Below, piece by piece: positions 9,491-58,559 of a stretch of 64,000 bases of DNA. The DNA is from a virus, in the IMG/VR virus record IMGVR_UViG_3300047483_000490, positions 1 through 64,000 of that record; one strand, written 5' to 3'. The notes beneath the pieces were generated by a model. The model worked only from the letters and a program-made list of their open reading frames with translations. It was not told the origin of the DNA and did no database searches. Numbering within the stretch: position 1 is the stretch's first letter; each line of letters begins with the position of its first letter. The translations under genes and the position numbers were made by a program.

Positions 9491-10090
9491 ATGTTAAACT
9501 ACAGAGAACTTACAGAGAATTTTTTAGAGACAAAATCAGAAAAAGATTTTACAGCGCTTTATCGCAAAGTTAAACCAGGATTAAAATCTTATATTAATAA
9601 AATTGTCAAAGATAGTGAAGCGACTGAGGATATTGTAGGAAATACATTAACAAAGATGTGGACTAAGATTGATCAATATGATCCACAATATCAAATTACA
9701 ACATGGTTATATCGTATTGCATTTAACGAATGTTTAGGTTACATCAATGAACGTAATAAGAAAACTTCTTTAAACAAATTAGCTGAATTTGGTATTGAAG
9801 TTGGTGATGAAGGTTTTATCGGTGGAGATATTTCTCAATTGATCGAAGATTCTGAACTTAAAACAGAACAAGATTGGTTAGATGAAGATCAAGATTTACA
9901 AAATCAATATACTGGAGCTTTAAAGGCTATTCAGTCTTTGAAACCAATTTATCGTGATATTGTAATTGATCGCTTACTTAACAATATGAAGTATGAAGAT
10001 ATTGCAGACAAGTATGATTTACCTTTGCAAACTATCAAAAACCGTATTTTAAGAGGTAAGCGTATTATCACTGAAGAATTAGAAAAATAA
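9491..10090 (+). CDS. ECF-type RNA polymerase sigma factor
   Basis: Region 2 (EDIV...KMW.KIDQYD...TWLYRIAFN) and region 4 HTH (YEDIADKYDLPLQTIKNRILRG). Confidence 0.9.
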   Translation: MLNYRELTENFLETKSEKDFTALYRKVKPGLKSYINKIVKDSEATEDIVGNTLTKMWTKIDQYDPQYQITTWLYRIAFNECLGYINERNKKTSLNKLAEFGIEVGDEGFIGGDISQLIEDSELKTEQDWLDEDQDLQNQYTGALKAIQSLKPIYRDIVIDRLLNNMKYEDIADKYDLPLQTIKNRILRGKRIITEELEK

Positions 10091-10543: not shown

Positions 10544-11974
10544 ATGAACTTAGTAGACGCTTTAAGACAAGAAGACATTTTAACAGAAAATGGTATGGCA
10601 ACTAATTCAACTTCGTTGAATGCATGTGTCGATTTATTTTTTAACATTGGTGCAATGAGAGGCCAAGACAAACAACGTTTGATCGCAACCTTTTCGAAAG
10701 CATTTAATGAAGATCCGAAGCGTGCTATGAAACTTTTGTTTTGGGCCAGAGATGTTAGAGGTGGTGCAGGTGAACGTCAAGTCTTCAAAGATATTTTAGT
10801 TTACTTAGCTGAAACTCATGATTTGGCTTTAAAACCAAACTTAGGCTTAATTGCAGAGTATGGTCGTTTTGATGACTTACTAACTTTAGTAGGAACTTAT
10901 TTAGAAAATGATGCTTTGCAAATTATTGCAGATGCTCTTAAATCTGAAAATGGTTTATGTGCAAAATGGATGCCACGTAAAGGTCAAGTAGCTGAAAAGT
11001 TACGTGCATTCTTGAAATTGTCACCAAAACAATATCGTAAAACTTTAGTTAATTTAACTAACGTTGTTGAAACTAAAATGTGTGCTAAAGAATGGGATTC
11101 TATTGAATTCGGTAAATTACCATCAGTGGCTTCAGCACGATACCAAAAAGCTTTCGGTAAAAATGCTTACGAAAGTTATTCAGCTTATATCCAATCCTTA
11201 GTGAAAGGTGAAGCTAAGATTAATGCAGGCGCAGTTTATCCTTATGATGTTGTAAAATCATTAACACACGGAAATGCAGCAGTAGCAAACGAACAATGGA
11301 AAGCCCTTCCAAATTACTTAGAAGGAGCAAACGATATGATTTTACCAGTGGTAGATGTTTCTGGTTCTATGTCTTGCTCTGCAGGAGGTAGTAAAACAGT
11401 AACATGTATGGATGTTGCAATCTCTTTAGGTCTTTATATTTCTGAAAGAAATGAAGGTCCTTTCAAAGATGCATTTATTACATTTTCAAACAATCCACAG
11501 TTACAAGTACTAAGTGGTTCATTGCAAGATCGCTACGCACAGATGTTATGTTCCGATTGGGGAATGTCAACAAATCTCGAGGCGACCTTCAAGCTGATCT
11601 TAGATCAGGCCACTAAACATAAATTGTCTCAAGACAAGATGCCAAATAAAGTTCTGATCTTGTCAGATATGGAATTTAATGCAGCAACTAGATCTAGCGG
11701 ATGGAGAAATACCGGATCAGATTGGAATCCAACTGCTCAACAAATGATTGAGAAAATGTACGAAGATGCAGGTTACAAAATGCCTCAAATCGTTTATTGG
11801 AACATTCAATCCAGAAATGGTGGAGTGCCAGTAGCATTTGACAAAGCAGGAACTGCATTAGTGTCAGGATTCTCTCCAGCAATTATGACAAGTTTACTTG
11901 GAGGAGATATTGAGTCTCCACAACAAATCATGGATAAAACAATCTTGAGCGAGAGATACGCTCCAATTGTTTAA
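10544..11974 (+). CDS. Ro60/TROVE-like vWA-domain protein (DUF2828-type)
   Basis: TENG N-terminus, RDVRGGAGER, EYGRFDDL, AKWMPR, vWA MIDAS DVSGSM and LSDMEF, VYWN, SGFS. Confidence 0.85.
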   Translation: MNLVDALRQEDILTENGMATNSTSLNACVDLFFNIGAMRGQDKQRLIATFSKAFNEDPKRAMKLLFWARDVRGGAGERQVFKDILVYLAETHDLALKPNLGLIAEYGRFDDLLTLVGTYLENDALQIIADALKSENGLCAKWMPRKGQVAEKLRAFLKLSPKQYRKTLVNLTNVVETKMCAKEWDSIEFGKLPSVASARYQKAFGKNAYESYSAYIQSLVKGEAKINAGAVYPYDVVKSLTHGNAAVANEQWKALPNYLEGANDMILPVVDVSGSMSCSAGGSKTVTCMDVAISLGLYISERNEGPFKDAFITFSNNPQLQVLSGSLQDRYAQMLCSDWGMSTNLEATFKLILDQATKHKLSQDKMPNKVLILSDMEFNAATRSSGWRNTGSDWNPTAQQMIEKMYEDAGYKMPQIVYWNIQSRNGGVPVAFDKAGTALVSGFSPAIMTSLLGGDIESPQQIMDKTILSERYAPIV

Positions 11975-11990
11975 GATATATAAAGAAAAT

Positions 11991-12048
11991 TGGTTCCTTA
12001 CAGCAAACTATAAAAAGCAATCACTTAACTAGCAAACGATTGGAACCA
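11991..12048 (+). ncRNA. CAGCAA-motif small RNA A (Y-RNA-like candidate)
   Basis: tggttcc/ggaacca terminal helix followed by tta-cagcaa; 17 nt after the TROVE-like gene. Confidence 0.65.
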
Positions 12049-12051
12049 GGT

Positions 12052-12297
12052 GGATCGGTACAGCAAAAAGTACACACACAACTATGACAAATCTGAACAA
12101 CAGCGGAGCCAGTGGTTAGTCCCGGCATTGAAGCTGCAGATACGGTGAAGGTTAACACTAGAAAATGGACCGCCAGTCATACCACCCCAACAGGCGCAAG
12201 TAGGATGTAGTCGAAGTATAGTAGACTCTCGCGAAAGCTAAGCCGAAGACTATAAAGAGGGTTATTCTGCCGAGAAGAAAATCACGAACAACGATCC
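12052..12297 (+). ncRNA. CAGCAA-motif RNA B (long, multibranch)
   Basis: ggatcg/cgatcc terminal helix + gta-cagcaa; GC-rich internal helices. Confidence 0.6.
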
Positions 12298-12308
12298 CGT
12301 TATAATTT

Positions 12309-12338
12309 AATCCAGGCCCGTAAGCCTGGATTTTTTTT
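12309..12338 (+). terminator. intrinsic terminator
   Basis: aatccaggc-ccgtaa-gcctggatt + U tract. Confidence 0.85.
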
Positions 12339-13861: not shown

Positions 13862-14062
13862 ATGACAGATATTAAATTAGATTACAGTAAAATTAGTAAC
13901 GTTCAAGTTGGTGGTGTAGATATGCAAGATTATCCAGATTTCTGCGATGCTTATATTGAATCAGCAGATTACGGAGATCGTGAAATGACTGATGAAGAGT
14001 TAGACATTTTAAATGAAGACGGAGAATTTATCTCTATTAATGCTCACGAAAGTTTATATTAA
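13862..14062 (+). CDS. hypothetical protein (DYPDFCDAYI family)
   Basis: Follows class I promoter. Confidence 0.65.
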   Translation: MTDIKLDYSKISNVQVGGVDMQDYPDFCDAYIESADYGDREMTDEELDILNEDGEFISINAHESLY

Positions 14063-14072
14063 AACAAGAATT

Positions 14073-14738
14073 ATGAAAATAATAGTTAACCCAGGACAAA
14101 GAGTCTTTTTTACTTCAGATACGCATTACAACCATACAAATATTTGTAGAGGTGTTTCTAAGTGGGATGGCGCTAGAGGGACTCGAGATTATGACTCCTT
14201 GAATCAAATGAACATTGACATACAAGACAATATAAATATGTTAGTTATGCCAGATGACATCTTGATTCACTTGGGTGACTGGTCTTTTGGGGGCTTTGAG
14301 TCTATTGTAGAGTTTAGAAACAAACTAAACTGTAAGAACATTCACTTGTTCTTAGGAAATCATGATCATCACATCCTTAACAACAGAGATAACGTGCAAG
14401 ATCTTTTTGCTTCTGTAAATGAGCAAAGAATGGTTACTATTGTTATGCAACCTGAGGTTAAAGGTCAAGCTGCAAAAAGATATAGATTTGTTATGAGTCA
14501 TTATCCTTTAGCTTCTTGGCAAGATATGGGACAAGGTGTTATGCACGTCCATGGTCATATTCATACACCTCACCAATTTAAACTTGGGCCAGGTAAAATG
14601 ATGGATGTTGGACTTGATGGAAACCCTGATTTTCAACCATATACAATTCAACAAGTCTTGAAACTAATAGCAGATAGACCAATACAATCATTATTAAAAC
14701 ACGAGTTCGATCATCATAACGATGCTCAGACTTGCTAA
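14073..14738 (+). CDS. calcineurin-like metallophosphoesterase
   Basis: SDTH, LGD, GNHD, SHYP, HGHIH motifs. Confidence 0.9.
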   Translation: MKIIVNPGQRVFFTSDTHYNHTNICRGVSKWDGARGTRDYDSLNQMNIDIQDNINMLVMPDDILIHLGDWSFGGFESIVEFRNKLNCKNIHLFLGNHDHHILNNRDNVQDLFASVNEQRMVTIVMQPEVKGQAAKRYRFVMSHYPLASWQDMGQGVMHVHGHIHTPHQFKLGPGKMMDVGLDGNPDFQPYTIQQVLKLIADRPIQSLLKHEFDHHNDAQTC

Positions 14739-14748
14739 ATAAACAAAC

Positions 14749-15135
14749 ATGAAAGAATTATTTTTATTAAGAGGTTTACCAGGTTCTGGCAAATCAACAG
14801 TTGCGAAATCTTTAGGTGGAACACATCACGAGGCAGATCATTTCTTTACAAATAAGAAAGGCGAATATAAGTTTGAGGCTGTAAAGCTTTTACAAGCTCA
14901 TAAATATTGCCAATCATCTTGTAAAGAAGACATGGAAAACGGCGAAGAACGTATTGTTATCTCAAACACATTCACACAAGAATGGGAAATGGAAACCTAT
15001 TATACTTTGGCAAAAAAGTATGGTTATATTGTTTATGCTTTAATTGTTGAAAATAGACACAATGGAGTTAACCAACATGGTGTTCCAGCAGAAAAATTAA
15101 AGCAAATGGAAGACAGATTTGAGATACAATTGTAA
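14749..15135 (+). CDS. P-loop kinase (AAA_33, polynucleotide kinase-like)
   Basis: RGLPGSGKST, EAD.FF, SNTFT, HGVP motifs. Confidence 0.85.
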   Translation: MKELFLLRGLPGSGKSTVAKSLGGTHHEADHFFTNKKGEYKFEAVKLLQAHKYCQSSCKEDMENGEERIVISNTFTQEWEMETYYTLAKKYGYIVYALIVENRHNGVNQHGVPAEKLKQMEDRFEIQL

Positions 15136-17986: not shown

Positions 17987-18115
17987 GGCCAGGTGGTGGA
18001 ATTGGTAGACACTAAGCCTCAGCAAGAGTGGCGGAACGCTGTGACGGACTCCGAAGTACAAGGAGTTGAAGGTGAAGATTACGCACGGTTATAGGTTCGA
18101 ATCCTGTCCTGGTCA
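17987..18115 (+). ncRNA. tRNA-like RNA with structured insert replacing the anticodon arm
   Basis: ggccagg/cctggtc acceptor, Leu-type D arm, canonical T arm, ~70-nt insert. Confidence 0.7.
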
Positions 18116-18195
18116 CTCTACTTAAACTAGTTTATGAACAGTCTTTGAGGTGAGATGCTCTCATTATAAAATTAGGTTAAACATTGAATACCTTT

Positions 18196-18460
18196 GTAAA
18201 TAAGCGGACTCAGTAGTGTGGGCAGTACCTTTCATGGTATGAAGCAAAGAAGACAGGATGTAATTTCCTTCCTTATTTACATAAAGATACTATCAGTAAT
18301 GGTAGATGTGTTGTTCCCTTGAGAAAGAAATATGAAATACGAGGTAGGTCATAACATCCTACACAACACAAATGAGTTCTCAGCAAGTAGTTAAAGCGGA
18401 AGATTGTACATTAAATTGTCCGAAGTACTTAACAGATTAACTACGTGACCCTACTCTTAT
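18196..18460 (+). ncRNA. cluster of putative structured small RNAs
   Basis: Closing helices gtaaataag/cttatttac, tgtgttgt/acaacaca, gtagttaa/ttaactac; no ORF. Confidence 0.45.
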
Positions 18461-18577: not shown

Positions 18578-19696
18578 ATGGAAAATCAAAATTCAGTTTG
18601 CTATGTAGCAAAAATTAACGAGATTAAAGCAATTGAAGGAGCTGACAATATTGAATTGGTAGTTGCTGGAGGTTGGAATGCTATTACAAAAAAAGGTGAA
18701 TTCACCGTAGGTTCATTAACTGTAATTGCAACAACTGACGCAGTTATTCCTGAAGCACTTTCTGAAAAGATGGGTGTTACTAATTATTTACGTAAAGGTC
18801 AAAGAGTTAGAACTGTAAAACTAAGAGGTGTTTACTCTGAATGTTTGATTATTCCAATAGTTCATATCAAGGCTTCTAGTATTAGAGAAGGTCGCGACTT
18901 AATGGAAGAATTAGGCATCACTAAATTCGAGCCACCGGTTAAACAAATCCAATTAACTTCTGGCAAAAAGATTCGTTACAGTGAAAATCCTAACTTTAAA
19001 ATCTATTACAAGTTTCCAAACTTGAAAAATGTTGCAGGTATGTTTACTGAAGAGAACGCAGTTCAAATCACTCGTAAATTACATGGAACTAACGCACGAT
19101 ATGGAATTGTAAAACGTAAGAAGATAGGATTACTTACAAAACTTAAAGCTTTTTTTGGTGACAAATGGGCTGGATATGAATTTGTAGTTGGTTCTCATAA
19201 CGTTGAAAAAGGTTCTGAATCACAAGGATTCTATGACACTAACGTGTGGTATGAAATTGCAGACAAATATAAGATCAAATCTAAGTTGTGGAATTTTATT
19301 AAAGAGACTGCAACACCTGAAGGAATTGGTGAAGGTTTTTGTATCTATGGTGAAATCTACGGTGCAGGAATTCAAAAGAATTACGAGTACGGTCTTACTG
19401 AAATTAAGTTTTCTATGTTTGACGTAACTCTTAATGGTGATTATGTACCAACCGGATGGACAGAAATGTATGCAAATGAATTAGGATTTGATCACGTTGA
19501 AGTTCTTTACGATGGCTTATGGTCTCAAGAAATTCAAGATCGTTTTGTCTTTAACAACTTTATTGAAGGCACCAAAGTGCCACATGAAGGAATTGTAATC
19601 AAACATGTCTCTGGTGAAAGAAGTAAAGTAGCTAAGGTTATTAACCCAGACTATTTAATCTACGGTGAAAAAAATAACGTAGGAGATTCTCACTAA
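18578..19696 (+). CDS. RNA ligase, DRB0094-like family
   Basis: N-terminal OB-like domain (GADNIE), KLHGTN motif I, YGEIYG, FDV, EGIVIK, KVINPDY. Confidence 0.88.
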   Translation: MENQNSVCYVAKINEIKAIEGADNIELVVAGGWNAITKKGEFTVGSLTVIATTDAVIPEALSEKMGVTNYLRKGQRVRTVKLRGVYSECLIIPIVHIKASSIREGRDLMEELGITKFEPPVKQIQLTSGKKIRYSENPNFKIYYKFPNLKNVAGMFTEENAVQITRKLHGTNARYGIVKRKKIGLLTKLKAFFGDKWAGYEFVVGSHNVEKGSESQGFYDTNVWYEIADKYKIKSKLWNFIKETATPEGIGEGFCIYGEIYGAGIQKNYEYGLTEIKFSMFDVTLNGDYVPTGWTEMYANELGFDHVEVLYDGLWSQEIQDRFVFNNFIEGTKVPHEGIVIKHVSGERSKVAKVINPDYLIYGEKNNVGDSH

Positions 19697-56536: not shown

Positions 56537-56593
56537 AGGATGCTTCCAGCAAATTTACAAAACTTTATATGGAAAAGCAAAACATAGCATCCT
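56537..56593 (+). ncRNA. CAGCAA-motif small RNA C
   Basis: aggatgct/agcatcct helix + tc-cagcaa. Confidence 0.65.
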
Positions 56594-56668
56594 GTTTTTT
56601 AAAATTTAAGAGTATGGACGGAGCAGCAGAAATTCTAGATAGCAGAAGTCTCAGGTCCTAACTCTCTC

Positions 56669-56741
56669 GGGGCTGTGGTGAAATTGGCTATCATCACAGA
56701 TTTGCATTCTGTAGTTCTCGGATCGTAACCGGGCAGCTCCA
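56669..56741 (+). tRNA. tRNA-Ala(UGC) with atypical T loop
   Basis: G3:U70, acaga-tttgcat-tctgt; T loop atcgtaa. Confidence 0.85.
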
Positions 56742-56832
56742 CTAAAAGACTTACATTAATTTGTAAGTCTTTTTTATTTATATTAATAGGGCTCGATTGC
56801 TATATTCTCCACATTTAATAGATATATAGAAT

Positions 56833-57591
56833 ATGGAAGAAATAATAAAATGCGAAGAGTGCGGAGAATTATTTATAAATAAAAAGATCAAAGCTAATCA
56901 TGTACGATGGAAACACAGAGATCAAACTTTTTATAAAAATAAAGCATCTGGTATATTAAAAGAAGCTTACGCCGATAAACACGGTAAAATTATCACTGAA
57001 AATGTCATATGTTCTAATTTAAAATGTAATAAGACTTTTTCGATAGAATATAGAACTGGCAAAAAGAAAGAAAAAAACTTCTGTTCTAGATCTTGTGCTA
57101 ATTCAAGAGGATCTTTGTCTACTGAAACTAAACAAAAGATAGCAGATTCGTTAAAAAAAGAATTTAAACTTTGTACATGTAAAAATTGTAATAAGCAGTT
57201 TGAACACAGCAAAGAAAAATTATATTGTTCTAATGAATGCTATTCTAATTATAGAAAAAAAGATAGAACAGATCTTCGTAATTATAGATTAGAAGCCTCG
57301 TTTAATTTTAATATTTTTGACTATCCTGAAGAATTTGATTTAGAATTGATAAAAAAATACGGGTTTTATTCAGCTGCAAACAGAGGATGTAATTTAAATG
57401 GTATTAGCAGAGATCATGCATATAGCTGTAAAATGGGATTAATTAACAATATTGACCCAAAAATTTTAAGTCATCCTGCAAATTGTATATTAATGAGACA
57501 TAATGATAATATTTCCAAACATTCTAATTCATCTATTACAATCGAAGAATTATTAATAAAAATTGACAAATGGGATAAAAAATATAAATAA
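56833..57591 (+). CDS. HNH-type homing endonuclease with Zn-finger repeats
   Basis: CEEC, FCSRSCAN, YCSNEC, SRDH...HPANC...N..K. Confidence 0.8.
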   Translation: MEEIIKCEECGELFINKKIKANHVRWKHRDQTFYKNKASGILKEAYADKHGKIITENVICSNLKCNKTFSIEYRTGKKKEKNFCSRSCANSRGSLSTETKQKIADSLKKEFKLCTCKNCNKQFEHSKEKLYCSNECYSNYRKKDRTDLRNYRLEASFNFNIFDYPEEFDLELIKKYGFYSAANRGCNLNGISRDHAYSCKMGLINNIDPKILSHPANCILMRHNDNISKHSNSSITIEELLIKIDKWDKKYK

Positions 57592-57614
57592 GGTTCGAAT
57601 CTGGGTAGCTCCAC
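57591..57614 (+). pseudogene. displaced 3' fragment of tRNA-Ala
   Basis: ggttcgaatctgggtagctccact resembles the 3' end of tRNA-Ala at 56720..56743. Confidence 0.65.
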
Positions 57615-57687
57615 TGAAAAGGTTTCATTTAACGATGAAACCTTTTTTATTTAATAAGTATAATCATTAATTAAAAAATTAAACAAC

Positions 57688-58109: not shown

Positions 58110-58250
58110 AGGTTTCTTACAGCAATTAAAATTCTATAGGAACTGGTATCGAAAGATGTGTAGGTTCGAGTCCTACCTCTCCAACAAATTTTAAAATAAT
58201 TGGAGAGTGGTGAAATTGGTAGACACGCTAGTCAGAAAAAACAGAAACCT
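58110..58250 (+). ncRNA. CAGCAA-motif RNA D carrying circularly permuted tRNA-Leu(UAG)
   Basis: aggtttct/agaaacct helix; order variable arm, T arm, acceptor hairpin, D arm. Confidence 0.8.
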
Positions 58251-58260
58251 GAAAATTATT

Positions 58261-58319
58261 GGAATACCTACAGCAAGCTTACCAAACTTTGACTTTTACT
58301 CAAACCAAATGCGTATTCC
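58261..58319 (+). ncRNA. CAGCAA-motif RNA E carrying tRNA-Lys(UUU)-like anticodon stem-loop
   Basis: ggaatac/gtattcc helix; tttga-cttttac-tcaaa. Confidence 0.7.
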
Positions 58320-58336
58320 GTTAAATTATTTTATAA

Positions 58337-58471
58337 AGGATGGTTCCAGCAACACATACAAATTAGGCTGTTAACCTCGTGGTCGTCGGTTCGAACCCGG
58401 CCTTTGAACACCGCCTTAAGTGGCACGTTCAGAGTAGCTCAGTTGGTAGAGCACGTACAAAAGCCCATCCT
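58337..58471 (+). ncRNA. CAGCAA-motif RNA F carrying circularly permuted tRNA-Asn(GUU)
   Basis: aggatgg/ccatcct helix; agg-ctgttaa-cct, T arm, acceptor hairpin, D arm. Confidence 0.8.
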
Positions 58472-58559
58472 GATAAATTAAAAGTGTGTCTTGGTCCGCT
58501 CTGGCGAAAGTTAACGACAAGGTCCCGGTTGGCAGAAGGCCTCTGATCCAACCCAAAAC

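What the first reader, a model, noticed from the sequence alone, without database searches (positions are those of the whole stretch)
10544..12338. Ro60/TROVE-like protein plus a dispersed family of CAGCAA-motif RNAs carrying tRNA parts: candidate new phage ribonucleoprotein system
Seen: directly after the DUF2828-type TROVE/vWA gene, before one terminator, lie two RNAs (11991-12048, 12052-12297) built as a 6-8 bp terminal helix, 2-3 nt, then CAGCAA and an A-rich linker. The same architecture recurs at 56537-56593, 58110-58250, 58261-58319 and 58337-58471, with a weaker case at 18372-18460. Helix sequences differ but stay paired while CAGCAA is invariant. The enclosed cargo varies: nothing obvious, a Lys anticodon stem-loop, permuted tRNA-Leu, permuted tRNA-Asn, or a 230-nt multibranch domain. 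Known: Ro60/Rsr binds the terminal stem of Y RNAs, and bacterial YrlA RNAs carry a tRNA-like module. Inference: the helix+CAGCAA is the handle bound by this distinct Ro-like family, which displays interchangeable tRNA-mimic cargo, for example as decoys or repair aids against host anticodon nucleases.
Basis: partly seen in the sequence, partly recalled or inferred. Interest (0 to 1): 0.93.

Follow-up and report, generated by a model that had tools for sequence, protein, structure and literature searches.

The report
Phage Ro60-like protein with handle RNAs
A large uncultured phage encodes a ring-shaped protein predicted to fold like the RNA-binding autoantigen Ro60, plus at least six small RNAs that share one conserved "handle" but carry different interiors (several are rearranged tRNAs); this protein-RNA pairing recurs in very different phages, is in no RNA catalogue, and probably forms an undescribed cousin of the Ro60/Y-RNA particle used in the fight over host defences.

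Summary
The six elements are real. Each has a 7-8 bp terminal helix, 2-3 nt, an invariant CAGCAA, an A-rich linker and variable cargo. The weaker seventh case (18372-18460) has no closing helix. A tRNA-Leu-like gene at 17987-18116 carries CAGCAA beside its anticodon stem and may be a further member.

The gene at 10544-11974 is Pfam DUF2828+DUF7788. Its model (pLDDT 89) matches Ro60 over both domains (Z 22.5), but sequence searches find no TROVE.

The helix covaries: 99.6% of cells are paired and all 7 pairs show changes on both sides. A model built without this phage or its close kin still finds the window's three short copies. Handle RNAs lie beside the gene, on its strand, in about 70 of 80 related viral contigs, in six of six whole genomes of distant DUF2828 phages, and in many bacterial and archaeal contigs. 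They are absent from five control phages, including one with a canonical Ro60.

No Rfam family reaches threshold. The nearest are Dictyostelium Class I RNA and YrlA.

A 2024 preprint shows that the Bas63 orthologue, gp130, counters the Ppl defence and noted its Ro60 fold, but it did not find these RNAs.

Binding, expression and the decoy or repair role remain untested. This scan has already reported the same pairing on more than 80 other genomes.

The parts
10544..11974 (+). Gene for a 476-aa DUF2828 + DUF7788 protein with a predicted Ro60 fold: a HEAT-repeat ring plus a vWA domain with an intact MIDAS motif (D271, S273, S275, T343, D375).
   Evidence: Pfam E 1.5e-34 and 3.5e-54. PHROG 850 'RNA-binding protein'. 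AlphaFold2 pLDDT 89.3, pTM 0.89. Foldseek top 13 hits are all Ro60. VIA-align Z 22.5 to 1yvr over residues 8-457. Invariant columns.
11991..12048 (+). Handle RNA a, short form (58 nt): helix TGGTTCC/GGAACCA, then TTA, CAGCAA and an A-rich interior with no tRNA part.
   Evidence: R1 57.6 bits. Independent model R2 32.0 bits, E 2.4e-4. RF01414 17.9 bits. Orthologous copies in about 60 related contigs.
12052..12297 (+). Handle RNA b, long form (246 nt): helix GGATCG/CGATCC, TA, CAGCAA, then a conserved multibranch interior that is not tRNA-like.
   Evidence: Found in about 45 related contigs with compensatory handle changes, GGATCG/CGATCC to GGATAG/CTATCC to GGAACG/CGTTCC. RNAalifold gives 19 consensus pairs, 10 of them with changes on both sides.
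12311..12338 (+). Intrinsic terminator (hairpin TCCAGGC..GCCTGGA plus a T run) closing the gene-plus-two-RNA unit.
   Evidence: Read directly from the sequence. The same arrangement is seen in relatives.
56537..56593 (+). Handle RNA c, short form (57 nt): helix AGGATGC/GCATCCT, TTC, CAGCAA. It lies upstream of tRNA-Ala.
   Evidence: R1 63.9 bits. R2 46.9 bits, E 1.3e-7. RF01414 28.7 bits, E 0.011.
58110..58250 (+). Handle RNA d (141 nt). The cargo is a circularly permuted type-II tRNA-Leu body: T arm and 3' acceptor strand, a 19-nt closing loop, then the 5' acceptor strand and D arm. The handle replaces the anticodon loop.
   Evidence: ARAGORN on the permuted sequence. RF01414 24.1 bits. R1 27.1 bits full length.
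58261..58319 (+). Handle RNA e (59 nt). The cargo is a 5-bp hairpin with a CUUUUAC loop, resembling a tRNA-Lys(UUU) anticodon arm.
   Evidence: R1 45.2 bits. R2 27.2 bits.
58337..58471 (+). Handle RNA f (135 nt). The cargo is a permuted tRNA body with a closed acceptor stem, D and T arms and an intact CUGUUAA (Asn GUU) anticodon loop.
   Evidence: ARAGORN on the permuted sequence. RF02553 YrlA 30.6 bits, E 4.6e-4, below the gathering score of 69.
17987..18116 (+). Possible seventh member in unpermuted form: a tRNA-Leu-like gene with a 40-nt insert in the anticodon loop. The insert starts CAGCAAG two bases after the anticodon stem.
   Evidence: ARAGORN with introns allowed. Not detected by R1 or R2. 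Conservation in relatives was not tested.
14013..15132 (+). Context genes: a phosphoesterase (14013-14735) and a P-loop, polynucleotide-kinase-like ATPase (14749-15132).
   Evidence: Metallophos / phrog_547 and AAA_33 / phrog_2071 / phrog_505.
18578..19696 (+). Context gene: RNA ligase.
   Evidence: PF09414 and PF21189; phrog_968 at E 1.4e-57.

Best explanation
The gene at 10544-11974 encodes a distant structural relative of Ro60 (a HEAT-repeat ring plus a vWA domain) from a family of its own, DUF2828/DUF7788. The six RNAs, possibly seven, are most likely its partner RNAs and the functional equivalents of Y RNAs.

The part common to all of them is the likely protein-binding handle: a 7-bp terminal helix, UUA-CAGCAA just inside the 5' strand, and an unpaired G just after the 3' strand. 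The variable interior is cargo held out from the particle. In this phage the cargo is a sealed tRNA-Leu body, a sealed tRNA-Asn body, a Lys-type anticodon arm, a conserved 230-nt multibranch domain, or nothing recognisable.

The particle most likely acts early in infection in the contest with host defences. It could present tRNA look-alikes to tRNA-directed nucleases or repair enzymes, or it could recruit host RNA enzymes as Ro60-Y RNA recruits PNPase.

What is shown: the fold prediction, the covarying RNA family, and its tight genomic linkage to the gene across phages of many host phyla. What is published: an orthologue counters a defence system. What is inferred: binding to the handle, and the decoy, repair or recruitment role.
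For: Fold. The AlphaFold2 model has pLDDT 89.3. The top 13 Foldseek hits and top 10 VIA-align hits are all Ro60. Z is 22.5, with 404 aligned residues at rmsd 3.7 A to 1yvr, spanning both domains. The next tier, at Z about 10, is vWA only. The MIDAS residues are invariant in 50 diverse homologues.

RNA family. Across 36 sequences, 99.6% of cells are paired, 7 of 7 pairs show changes on both sides, and 94 cells are compensatory against 24 +/- 3.8 in shuffles. Slid controls pair at 30-52%. CAGCAA and the 3' G are present in 36 of 36.

Linkage.
- 79 model hits in 86 loci (573 kb, both strands), all on the gene's strand and all next to the gene.
- 55 hits in 80 bacterial and archaeal contigs, all on the gene's strand and mostly within 500 nt upstream of it.
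- In whole genomes of wV8, KVP40, Listeria LP-083-2, Staphylococcus S-CoN_Ph6, mycobacteriophage Krypton555 and Bas63, the hits lie only beside the gene or, in KVP40, in the tRNA cluster.
- T4, T5, SPO1, phiKZ and Bxz1 (860 kb) have neither the gene nor the RNA. Bxz1 carries a canonical TROVE Ro60.
- An independent model, R2, recovers the window's copies.

Cargo. The YrlA-like design is a tRNA body with a closed acceptor stem joined to the handle through the anticodon arm. The same design occurs in Krypton555 and wV8.

Context. A phosphoesterase, a kinase-like ATPase and an RNA ligase lie in the window. RtcB lies beside the Listeria phage locus.

Experiment in the literature. Bas63 gp130 counters the Ppl defence system (PMC11482910). 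I verified that bas63_0130 is the orthologue (47% identity, E 6e-112) and that three handle RNAs lie in unannotated gaps of its tRNA array.
Against: In the preprint, gp130 alone, from a plasmid or inserted in T7, restored growth on Ppl hosts without the phage's handle RNAs. At least that activity does not need them, unless host RNAs substitute.

Four of the six copies in this window lie 44-46 kb from the gene, among tRNAs. Adjacency is therefore a family-level tendency, not a rule.

Folding energies of the short, AU-rich RNAs are no better than shuffles, so the case for structure rests on covariation.

The alignment used for the pair counts was fitted to the model.

Sequence searches do not link the protein to TROVE, so homology with Ro60 rests on a predicted fold.
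Confidence: 0.7

Rival explanations
1. The handle is a maturation or stability signal, not a binding site for the DUF2828 protein. A terminal helix with fixed flanking bases could mark small RNAs in tRNA operons for end-processing, by host RNase P, Z or E or by a phage enzyme, or protect them from exonucleases. On this view the link with DUF2828 arises because both sit in or beside tRNA clusters.
For: Many copies are interleaved with tRNAs. The helix is 7 bp, like an acceptor stem. The invariant G lies exactly at the 3' boundary, where a cleavage signal would sit. gp130 works without the RNAs in T7.
Against: tRNA-rich phages without DUF2828 (T4, T5, SPO1, phiKZ, Bxz1) have no such elements. 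In the Staphylococcus, mycobacteriophage and Campylobacter phage loci, and in this window's first pair, the RNAs directly abut the gene itself. All 134 hits in gene-centred loci are on the gene's strand and beside it. An invariant single-stranded hexamer next to a helix is typical of a protein recognition site.
Confidence: 0.12
2. The permuted elements are precursors of working tRNAs. As with the permuted tRNA genes of the red alga Cyanidioschyzon (from my own knowledge), the handle would bring the ends together for cutting and ligation into a circle by the phage kinase, phosphatase and ligase. RNase P and Z would then open the acceptor stem to give tRNA-Leu and tRNA-Asn.
For: Permuted order with complete arms. 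An RNA ligase, a kinase-like ATPase and a phosphoesterase lie nearby. No tRNA-Asn or tRNA-Lys was found in the window.
Against: Elements a and c have no tRNA part, e has only an anticodon hairpin, and b holds a 230-nt non-tRNA domain, yet all carry the same handle. Excising the handle from d would leave A, not the universal U, at position 33 (read). No conserved junction motif is seen at the cargo boundaries. Most family members in other phages are short forms.
Confidence: 0.08
3. The similarity is a repeat of no function: a chance motif in AT-rich DNA, or remnants of a small mobile element.
For: CAGCAA alone is common, with 30 copies on the + strand. Folding energies are unremarkable.
Against: Helix sequences differ yet stay paired in 99.6% of cells. 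Independent models from unrelated phages find exactly these copies. The strand and position bias is absolute. There are no terminal repeats or target duplications.
Confidence: 0.02

Closest known systems
Ro60 (Rsr, TROVE2) with Y RNAs, especially bacterial and phage YrlA/YrlB (Chen et al. 2014, PMC4201824; Rfam RF02553) and Thermus phage phiLo Ro60 with Yrl1/Yrl2 (PMC12135203; PDB 9KOP)
   Same: Same predicted fold and domain order: a HEAT ring plus a vWA domain with MIDAS. The partner RNA genes lie next to the protein gene on the same strand. Each RNA is closed by a terminal helix. Some RNAs carry a tRNA body whose acceptor stem is sealed and which joins the helix through the anticodon arm. 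RNA-repair genes are associated with the locus.
   Different: The protein is a different sequence family: DUF2828/DUF7788 instead of TROVE/vWA_Ro60, with 12-17% identity in structural alignments and no HMM match. The handle is different: a perfect helix plus single-stranded UUACAGCAA and a 3' G, rather than the bulged helix with GGUCCGA-like or CGAA motifs. YrlA scores only 30-38 bits against a gathering score of 69, and only over the tRNA part. A phage with a canonical Ro60 (Bxz1) has no CAGCAA handle. The cargo range is much wider, from nothing to anticodon arms to a 230-nt domain.
Dictyostelium Class I RNAs (Rfam RF01414; Aspegren 2004; Avesson 2011; Kjellin 2021, PMC7919456)
   Same: About 55-65 nt long, with a short helix joining the 5' and 3' ends. 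The motif (CC)UUACAGCAA sits directly after the 5' strand. The interior is variable and A/U-rich. The bases just after the 3' strand are conserved...CUG(U) in Dictyostelium and an invariant G here. RF01414 is the recurring best non-tRNA Rfam match for phage copies, always over the full model.
   Different: Scores of 18-31 bits are below the gathering score of 41.5. The Dictyostelium genes are eukaryotic genes with their own DUSE promoter. Their only proven direct binder is the RRM protein Rnp1A. They were reported absent outside Dictyostelia. No tRNA cargo is known for them. I could not establish whether Dictyostelium has a DUF2828 protein.
Bas63 gp130 (Escherichia phage JohannRWettstein, bas63_0130), a counter of the Ppl defence system (PhageMaP preprint, PMC11482910)
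   Same: It is an orthologue: 47% identity and the same Pfam family. It lies directly upstream of the tRNA array. The authors noted its structural similarity to Ro60 and guessed that Y-like RNAs hide among the tRNAs.
   Different: The paper did not identify the RNAs. Here three are located in gaps between annotated tRNAs (82069-82142, 82236-82300, 82691-82765). In their assay the protein alone sufficed, so the role of the RNAs is open. Whether this window's phage meets Ppl-like systems is unknown.
T4 Pnkp/Rnl1 tRNA repair against anticodon nucleases such as PrrC (from my own knowledge)
   Same: A phosphoesterase, a kinase-like ATPase and an RNA ligase are encoded near tRNA-related RNAs. The cargo includes a Lys-type anticodon arm, and tRNA-Lys is the target of PrrC.
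   Different: T4 has neither the Ro-like protein nor the handle RNAs. Nothing here shows cleavage or repair.

Membership tests
DUF2828/DUF7788 proteins (Pfam PF11443 + PF25043; PHROG 850) | Matches both Pfam models above their gathering scores | tested here: met
   PF25043 scores 183.8 bits (cut-off 27.1) and PF11443 scores 120 bits (cut-off 29). phrog_850 E 2e-156.
Ro60 / TROVE family (Pfam PF05731 TROVE + PF25045 vWA_Ro60) | Sequence match to the TROVE and Ro60-vWA models | tested here: not met
   Neither family appears at E <= 0.1. phmmer against PDB sequences finds no Ro60. The canonical phage Ro60 of Bxz1 does match both models.
Ro60 / TROVE family | Closed HEAT-repeat ring followed by a vWA domain with a MIDAS motif | tested here: met
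   Predicted model only. Z 22.5, 404 aligned residues, rmsd 3.7 A to 1yvr across residues 8-457, and the top ten chains are all Ro60. D271, S273, S275, T343 and D375 are invariant.
Ro60 / TROVE family | Binds a Y RNA through the RNA's terminal helix | not testable with these tools
   Only genomic linkage is available.
YrlA Y RNA (Rfam RF02553) | Reaches the family's gathering score (69 bits) | tested here: not met
   30.6 bits at 58351-58491. 38.3 bits in Krypton555, covering model positions 24-84 only, which is the tRNA-like module.
YrlA Y RNA (Rfam RF02553) | tRNA-like module (T arm, closed acceptor stem, D arm) joined to a terminal helix | tested here: met
   Elements d and f.
Dictyostelium Class I RNA (Rfam RF01414) | Reaches the family's gathering score (41.5 bits) | tested here: not met
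   17.9, 24.1 and 28.7 bits in the window. 27-31 bits in other phages.
Dictyostelium Class I RNA (Rfam RF01414) | Short terminal helix, an 11-nt CCUUACAGCAA-type motif after the 5' strand, and a conserved 3' end | tested here: met
   Element a reads TGGTTCC-TTACAGCAA, which contains the full 11-mer. The family consensus is UUA-CAGCAA with a 3' G in 36 of 36. The Rfam consensus is shown and the features are described in PMC7919456.
Dictyostelium Class I RNA (Rfam RF01414) | DUSE promoter about 60 nt upstream; occurrence in Dictyostelia | tested here: not met
   These are phage genes inside phage transcription units, so they are not members in the taxonomic or promoter sense.

The most novel reading that the evidence does not exclude
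The stem-UUACAGCAA handle is an ancient recognition element for DUF2828-type Ro-like proteins, shared by phages, giant viruses and eukaryotes. On this reading the orphan Class I RNAs of Dictyostelium are its eukaryotic members, that is, Y-like RNAs of a DUF2828 protein.

There is a concrete, so far unnoticed lead. The pull-down with Class I RNA DdR-21 recovered, besides Rnp1A, GuaB and NdkC, a protein of unknown function, DDB_G0281243, which is conserved in all Dictyostelia (preprint 10.1101/2020.04.05.026054). [quoted passage not shown]
Probability: 0.25. Interest if true: 0.92.

Novelty: new variant of a known kind. Interest (0 to 1): 0.8.

Why it matters
Ro60 and Y RNAs are a classic ribonucleoprotein whose function is still only partly understood. 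This looks like a second, sequence-unrelated branch of the same design with its own RNA code.

The protein family is large. There are 6,619 clusters at 50% identity and 711 phage records. It also occurs in bacteria, archaea, plants, fungi and algae, and one plant homologue carries the name 'l728', which I take from memory to be a Mimivirus gene name.

The RNA partners are unannotated in every record I inspected. Some are mis-called as tiny ORFs, and others sit in 'gaps' of tRNA arrays.

One orthologue has a published anti-defence phenotype. The system is therefore experimentally tractable in Bas63 and other Felix O1-like phages, in Listeria P100-type phages and in mycobacteriophages.

The modular cargo (sealed tRNA bodies, single anticodon arms, a large conserved domain) suggests a general way for phages to display RNA mimics. 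The resemblance to Dictyostelium Class I RNAs could also explain an RNA class that has been an orphan for 20 years.

Tried and rejected
1. Weak seventh copy at 18372-18460. No closing helix appears in the MFE fold, and R1 gives no hit even at E 10 with filters off. Rejected.

2. L10_leader (RF00557) resemblance of the 3' part of the long RNA: 23.5 bits in the window and 33.7 bits in L049. Most of the score comes from the terminator hairpin and U run. The conserved GAAGAC also pairs differently in the RNAalifold consensus. Rejected as probably spurious.

3. Stretches between elements (58472-58559 and 56594-56668). Fold z-scores are +0.4 and +0.2, so there is no sign of further structured RNAs.

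4. Expression evidence.

5. A Dictyostelium DUF2828 protein. All three protein searches listed only phage, metagenome, plant, fungal, algal or dinoflagellate proteins. The protein atlas gave only viral clusters. DDB_G0281243 appears in one held paper only, without a domain description, and Avesson 2011 is not held. This is untested, not negative.

6. Literature. I found no paper describing the stem-ACAGCAA RNAs of phages.

7. The short-form models R1 and R2 do not detect long-cargo members well. Those were found with a helix-plus-motif script, which is less specific.

8. Complex prediction was not used, because it cannot take RNA.
Full report
**What the window is.** The window is the first 64 kb of a 79.6-kb IMG/VR virus fragment, estimated about 30% complete. 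GC content is 32.5%. ARAGORN and Rfam together call about 19 tRNA genes. Close relatives are uncultured viral contigs of up to 256 kb. The nearest cultured phages, at the DNA level, are KVP40-like vibriophages and Cronobacter phage S13, and they match only within the gene studied here.

**Observation.** All six main elements are at the stated places. In each, a 7-8 bp helix joins the first and last bases. It is followed by 2-3 nt (TTA, TA, TTC or CTA), then CAGCAA, then an A-rich stretch.
- Elements a (11991-12048) and b (12052-12297) start 17 nt after the stop codon of the gene, are separated by 3 nt, and are followed by a clear terminator.
- Elements c (56537-56593), d (58110-58250), e (58261-58319) and f (58337-58471) lie among tRNA-Ala and tRNA-Gly, 44-46 kb away.
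- CAGCAA alone is common, with 30 copies on the + strand, so the hexamer by itself proves nothing.
- The decisive control is a covariance model built only from Listeria, Staphylococcus, Felix O1-like and KVP40 phages and four MAG contigs (R2). Scanned over both strands with filters off, its top hits are c, a and e (46.9, 32.0 and 27.2 bits). A partial hit on d follows, and nothing else falls below E 0.8.
- The weaker case at 18372-18460 has no closing helix and no model hit.

**Cargo.**
- After the two halves of d are put back in tRNA order, ARAGORN draws a complete type-II tRNA-Leu, with the handle sitting where the anticodon loop should be.
- Element f gives an acceptor stem, D arm and T arm plus an intact CUGUUAA loop.
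- In both d and f the acceptor stem is closed by a loop, so there is no free CCA end.
- Element e holds a 5-bp hairpin with a CUUUUAC loop.
- This is the architecture of bacterial YrlA. Rfam's YrlA model hits f at 30.6 bits (E 4.6e-4), well below its gathering score of 69.
- Element b is conserved in about 45 related contigs with compensatory changes in the handle. It has inner helices that covary, and its interior is not tRNA-like.
- A tRNA-Leu-like gene at 17987-18116, in normal order, has a 40-nt insert that begins CAGCAAG two bases after the anticodon stem. It may be the same module in unpermuted form.

**The protein.** The 476-aa product matches Pfam DUF2828 and DUF7788 and PHROG 850. It matches no TROVE model, and phmmer against PDB sequences finds no Ro60.
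- An AlphaFold2 model built on 50 diverse homologues has pLDDT 89.3 and pTM 0.89.
- The 13 best Foldseek hits are all Ro60, from Thermus phage, Xenopus, Deinococcus and human.
- VIA-align gives Z 22.5 with 404 aligned residues at rmsd 3.7 A over residues 8-457. The next tier, at Z about 10, consists of vWA domains only.
- The MIDAS residues are invariant.
- The protein therefore has the Ro60 design but belongs to a separate sequence family.
- That family is very large: 6,619 clusters at 50% identity and 711 phage records.
- It also has homologues in fungi, plants, a green alga and a dinoflagellate.

**Linkage of RNA and gene.**
- A helix-plus-motif script, and then model R1, found the element directly beside the gene in most of 80 related viral contigs. 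R1 gave 79 hits in 573 kb, all on the gene's strand and all adjacent to the gene.
- The same holds for phages whose proteins are only 33-47% identical. Felix O1-like wV8 has four copies in the tRNA array just downstream, one of them with tRNA-like cargo. Listeria LP-083-2 has three copies just upstream, with RtcB 1.3 kb downstream. Staphylococcus S-CoN_Ph6 has three copies, and two tiny annotated ORFs lie over the same stretch. Mycobacteriophage Krypton555 has three, one with a permuted tRNA body. Campylobacter Los1 has two.
- Whole-genome scans of six DUF2828 phages place every hit beside the gene. The exception is KVP40, where the single strong hit lies in the tRNA cluster 7 kb away.
- In 80 bacterial and archaeal contigs carrying the gene, 55 hits all lie on the gene's strand, mostly within 500 nt upstream.
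- Five control phages without the gene (T4, T5, SPO1, phiKZ, Bxz1; 860 kb) have no hit below E 0.09. Bxz1 carries a canonical TROVE + vWA_Ro60 protein, so the handle goes with DUF2828 and not with Ro60 in general.

**Covariation.** On 36 aligned members, 99.6% of cells form standard pairs and all seven pairs show changes on both sides. There are 94 compensatory cells against 24 +/- 3.8 in shuffles. Sliding the partner by one to three columns drops pairing to 30-52%. That alignment was fitted to the model, which favours the structure. The hand-checked helices tell the same story. CAGCAA and the first base after the 3' strand (G) are invariant in 36 of 36.

**What is known.**
- No Rfam 15 family reaches its threshold on any copy.
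- The recurring best non-tRNA match is RF01414, the Class I RNAs of Dictyostelium, at 18-31 bits over the full model. Their consensus (a short terminal helix, CCUUACAGCAA, an A/U-rich interior and ...CUG at the end) mirrors the phage handle. Those RNAs were reported to be unique to dictyostelids (PMC7919456).
- Chen et al. 2014 searched only genomes annotated with TROVE (PMC4201824).
- The Thermus phage Ro60 study concerns a canonical Ro60 with CGAA-motif Yrl RNAs (PMC12135203).
- Iyer et al. 2021 mention ROT/TROVE proteins in some jumbo phages.
- The closest anticipation is the PhageMaP preprint (PMC11482910). It reports that Bas63 gp130 has 'high structural similarity to Ro60' and lies upstream of the tRNAs. 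It is needed on hosts carrying the Ppl defence system, and it rescues T7 there when expressed alone. The authors guessed that some annotated tRNAs might be Y RNAs.
- I verified that bas63_0130 is the orthologue (47% identity, E 6e-112). Three handle RNAs lie in the unannotated gaps between its tRNA genes.
- I found no paper that describes the RNA family itself.

**Mechanism.** The best-supported reading is a Ro/Y-like particle. The protein would recognise the helix together with the single-stranded UUACAGCAA and the 3' G, and the interior would be displayed.
- The genomic context points to tRNA damage and repair. The context includes tRNA clusters and the phosphoesterase, kinase-like ATPase and RNA ligase at 14.0-19.7 kb. 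RtcB is a neighbour in the Listeria phage. The cargo includes Leu and Asn tRNA bodies and a Lys-type anticodon arm.
- The published Ppl phenotype shows that the protein family acts in counter-defence.
- That work also shows that the protein can act without its phage RNAs in one assay. The RNAs may therefore widen or tune the function rather than being obligatory.
- Binding, expression, processing and the decoy or repair role are all inferences.
- I give the rivals 12%, 8% and 2%. They are a processing or stability signal, precursors of permuted tRNAs matured by ligation, and a functionless repeat.

**Earlier work of this scan.** The same pairing has already been reported on more than 80 other genomes. 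One earlier report was later checked with the result 'seen 90/100, bold reading 6/100'. I repeated the key tests independently here.

- the link to the published Bas63 gp130 phenotype, with the RNAs located in that genome;
- the negative control with a canonical-Ro60 phage;
- the RNA-repair genes in this window;
- the lead that the uncharacterised protein DDB_G0281243 was pulled down with a Class I RNA. I could not determine its domain content.

**Verdict.** This is a new variant of a known kind, a Ro60/Y-RNA-like particle. It is widespread and unannotated, and it can be tested in cultured phages.

Noticed in passing
window 17987-18116 (+): A tRNA-Leu-like gene in normal order with a 40-nt insert in the anticodon loop. 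The insert begins CAGCAAG right after the anticodon stem plus CU. It may be the handle module in unpermuted form.
   Followed up: partly
window 31200-31322 (+): A tRNA-Leu(tag) with a 48-nt insert at position 38/39. The insert starts GAGCAAG and contains a second T-loop-like GGTTCGATTCC. Rfam calls the whole stretch a tRNA at 50.5 bits.
   Followed up: partly
window 56669-57625 (+): tRNA-Ala and a terminator are followed by a 252-aa ORF (56833-57591, no Pfam match) and then by GGTTCGAATCTGGGTAGCTCCA. That sequence looks like a duplicated 3' end of the tRNA, as if a mobile ORF had inserted beside or into a tRNA gene.
   Followed up: partly
L083 962-1513 (Listeria phage LP-083-2, about 640 nt upstream of the first handle RNA): A ROOL RNA (RF03087, 87.4 bits, just under the gathering score of 99.1) sits in the same non-coding, tRNA-rich stretch as the handle RNAs and the DUF2828 gene.
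   Followed up: no
window 9491-10090 (+): A sigma-70-family protein (regions 2 and 4) is encoded about 450 nt upstream of the Ro-like gene. The sequence TTTTTTATGTCAAA recurs after terminators (12356, 18527) and may be a phage promoter element.
   Followed up: no
L084 4010-4357 (Staphylococcus phage S-CoN_Ph6): Two annotated 'hypothetical protein' mini-ORFs (CDS0028 and CDS0029) lie over the stretch that holds three handle RNAs. They are probably annotation artefacts.
   Followed up: partly
L082 1932-1950 (KVP40): TTTTACAGCAA lies about 20 nt upstream of the DUF2828 start codon with no clear closing helix. It could be a binding site for autoregulation. The phage's one clear handle RNA lies in its tRNA cluster (record 176661-176725).
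   Followed up: no
P0389: A plant homologue is named 'uncharacterized protein l728', which I take from memory to be a Mimivirus gene name. This suggests that giant viruses of amoebae carry the family too.
   Followed up: no
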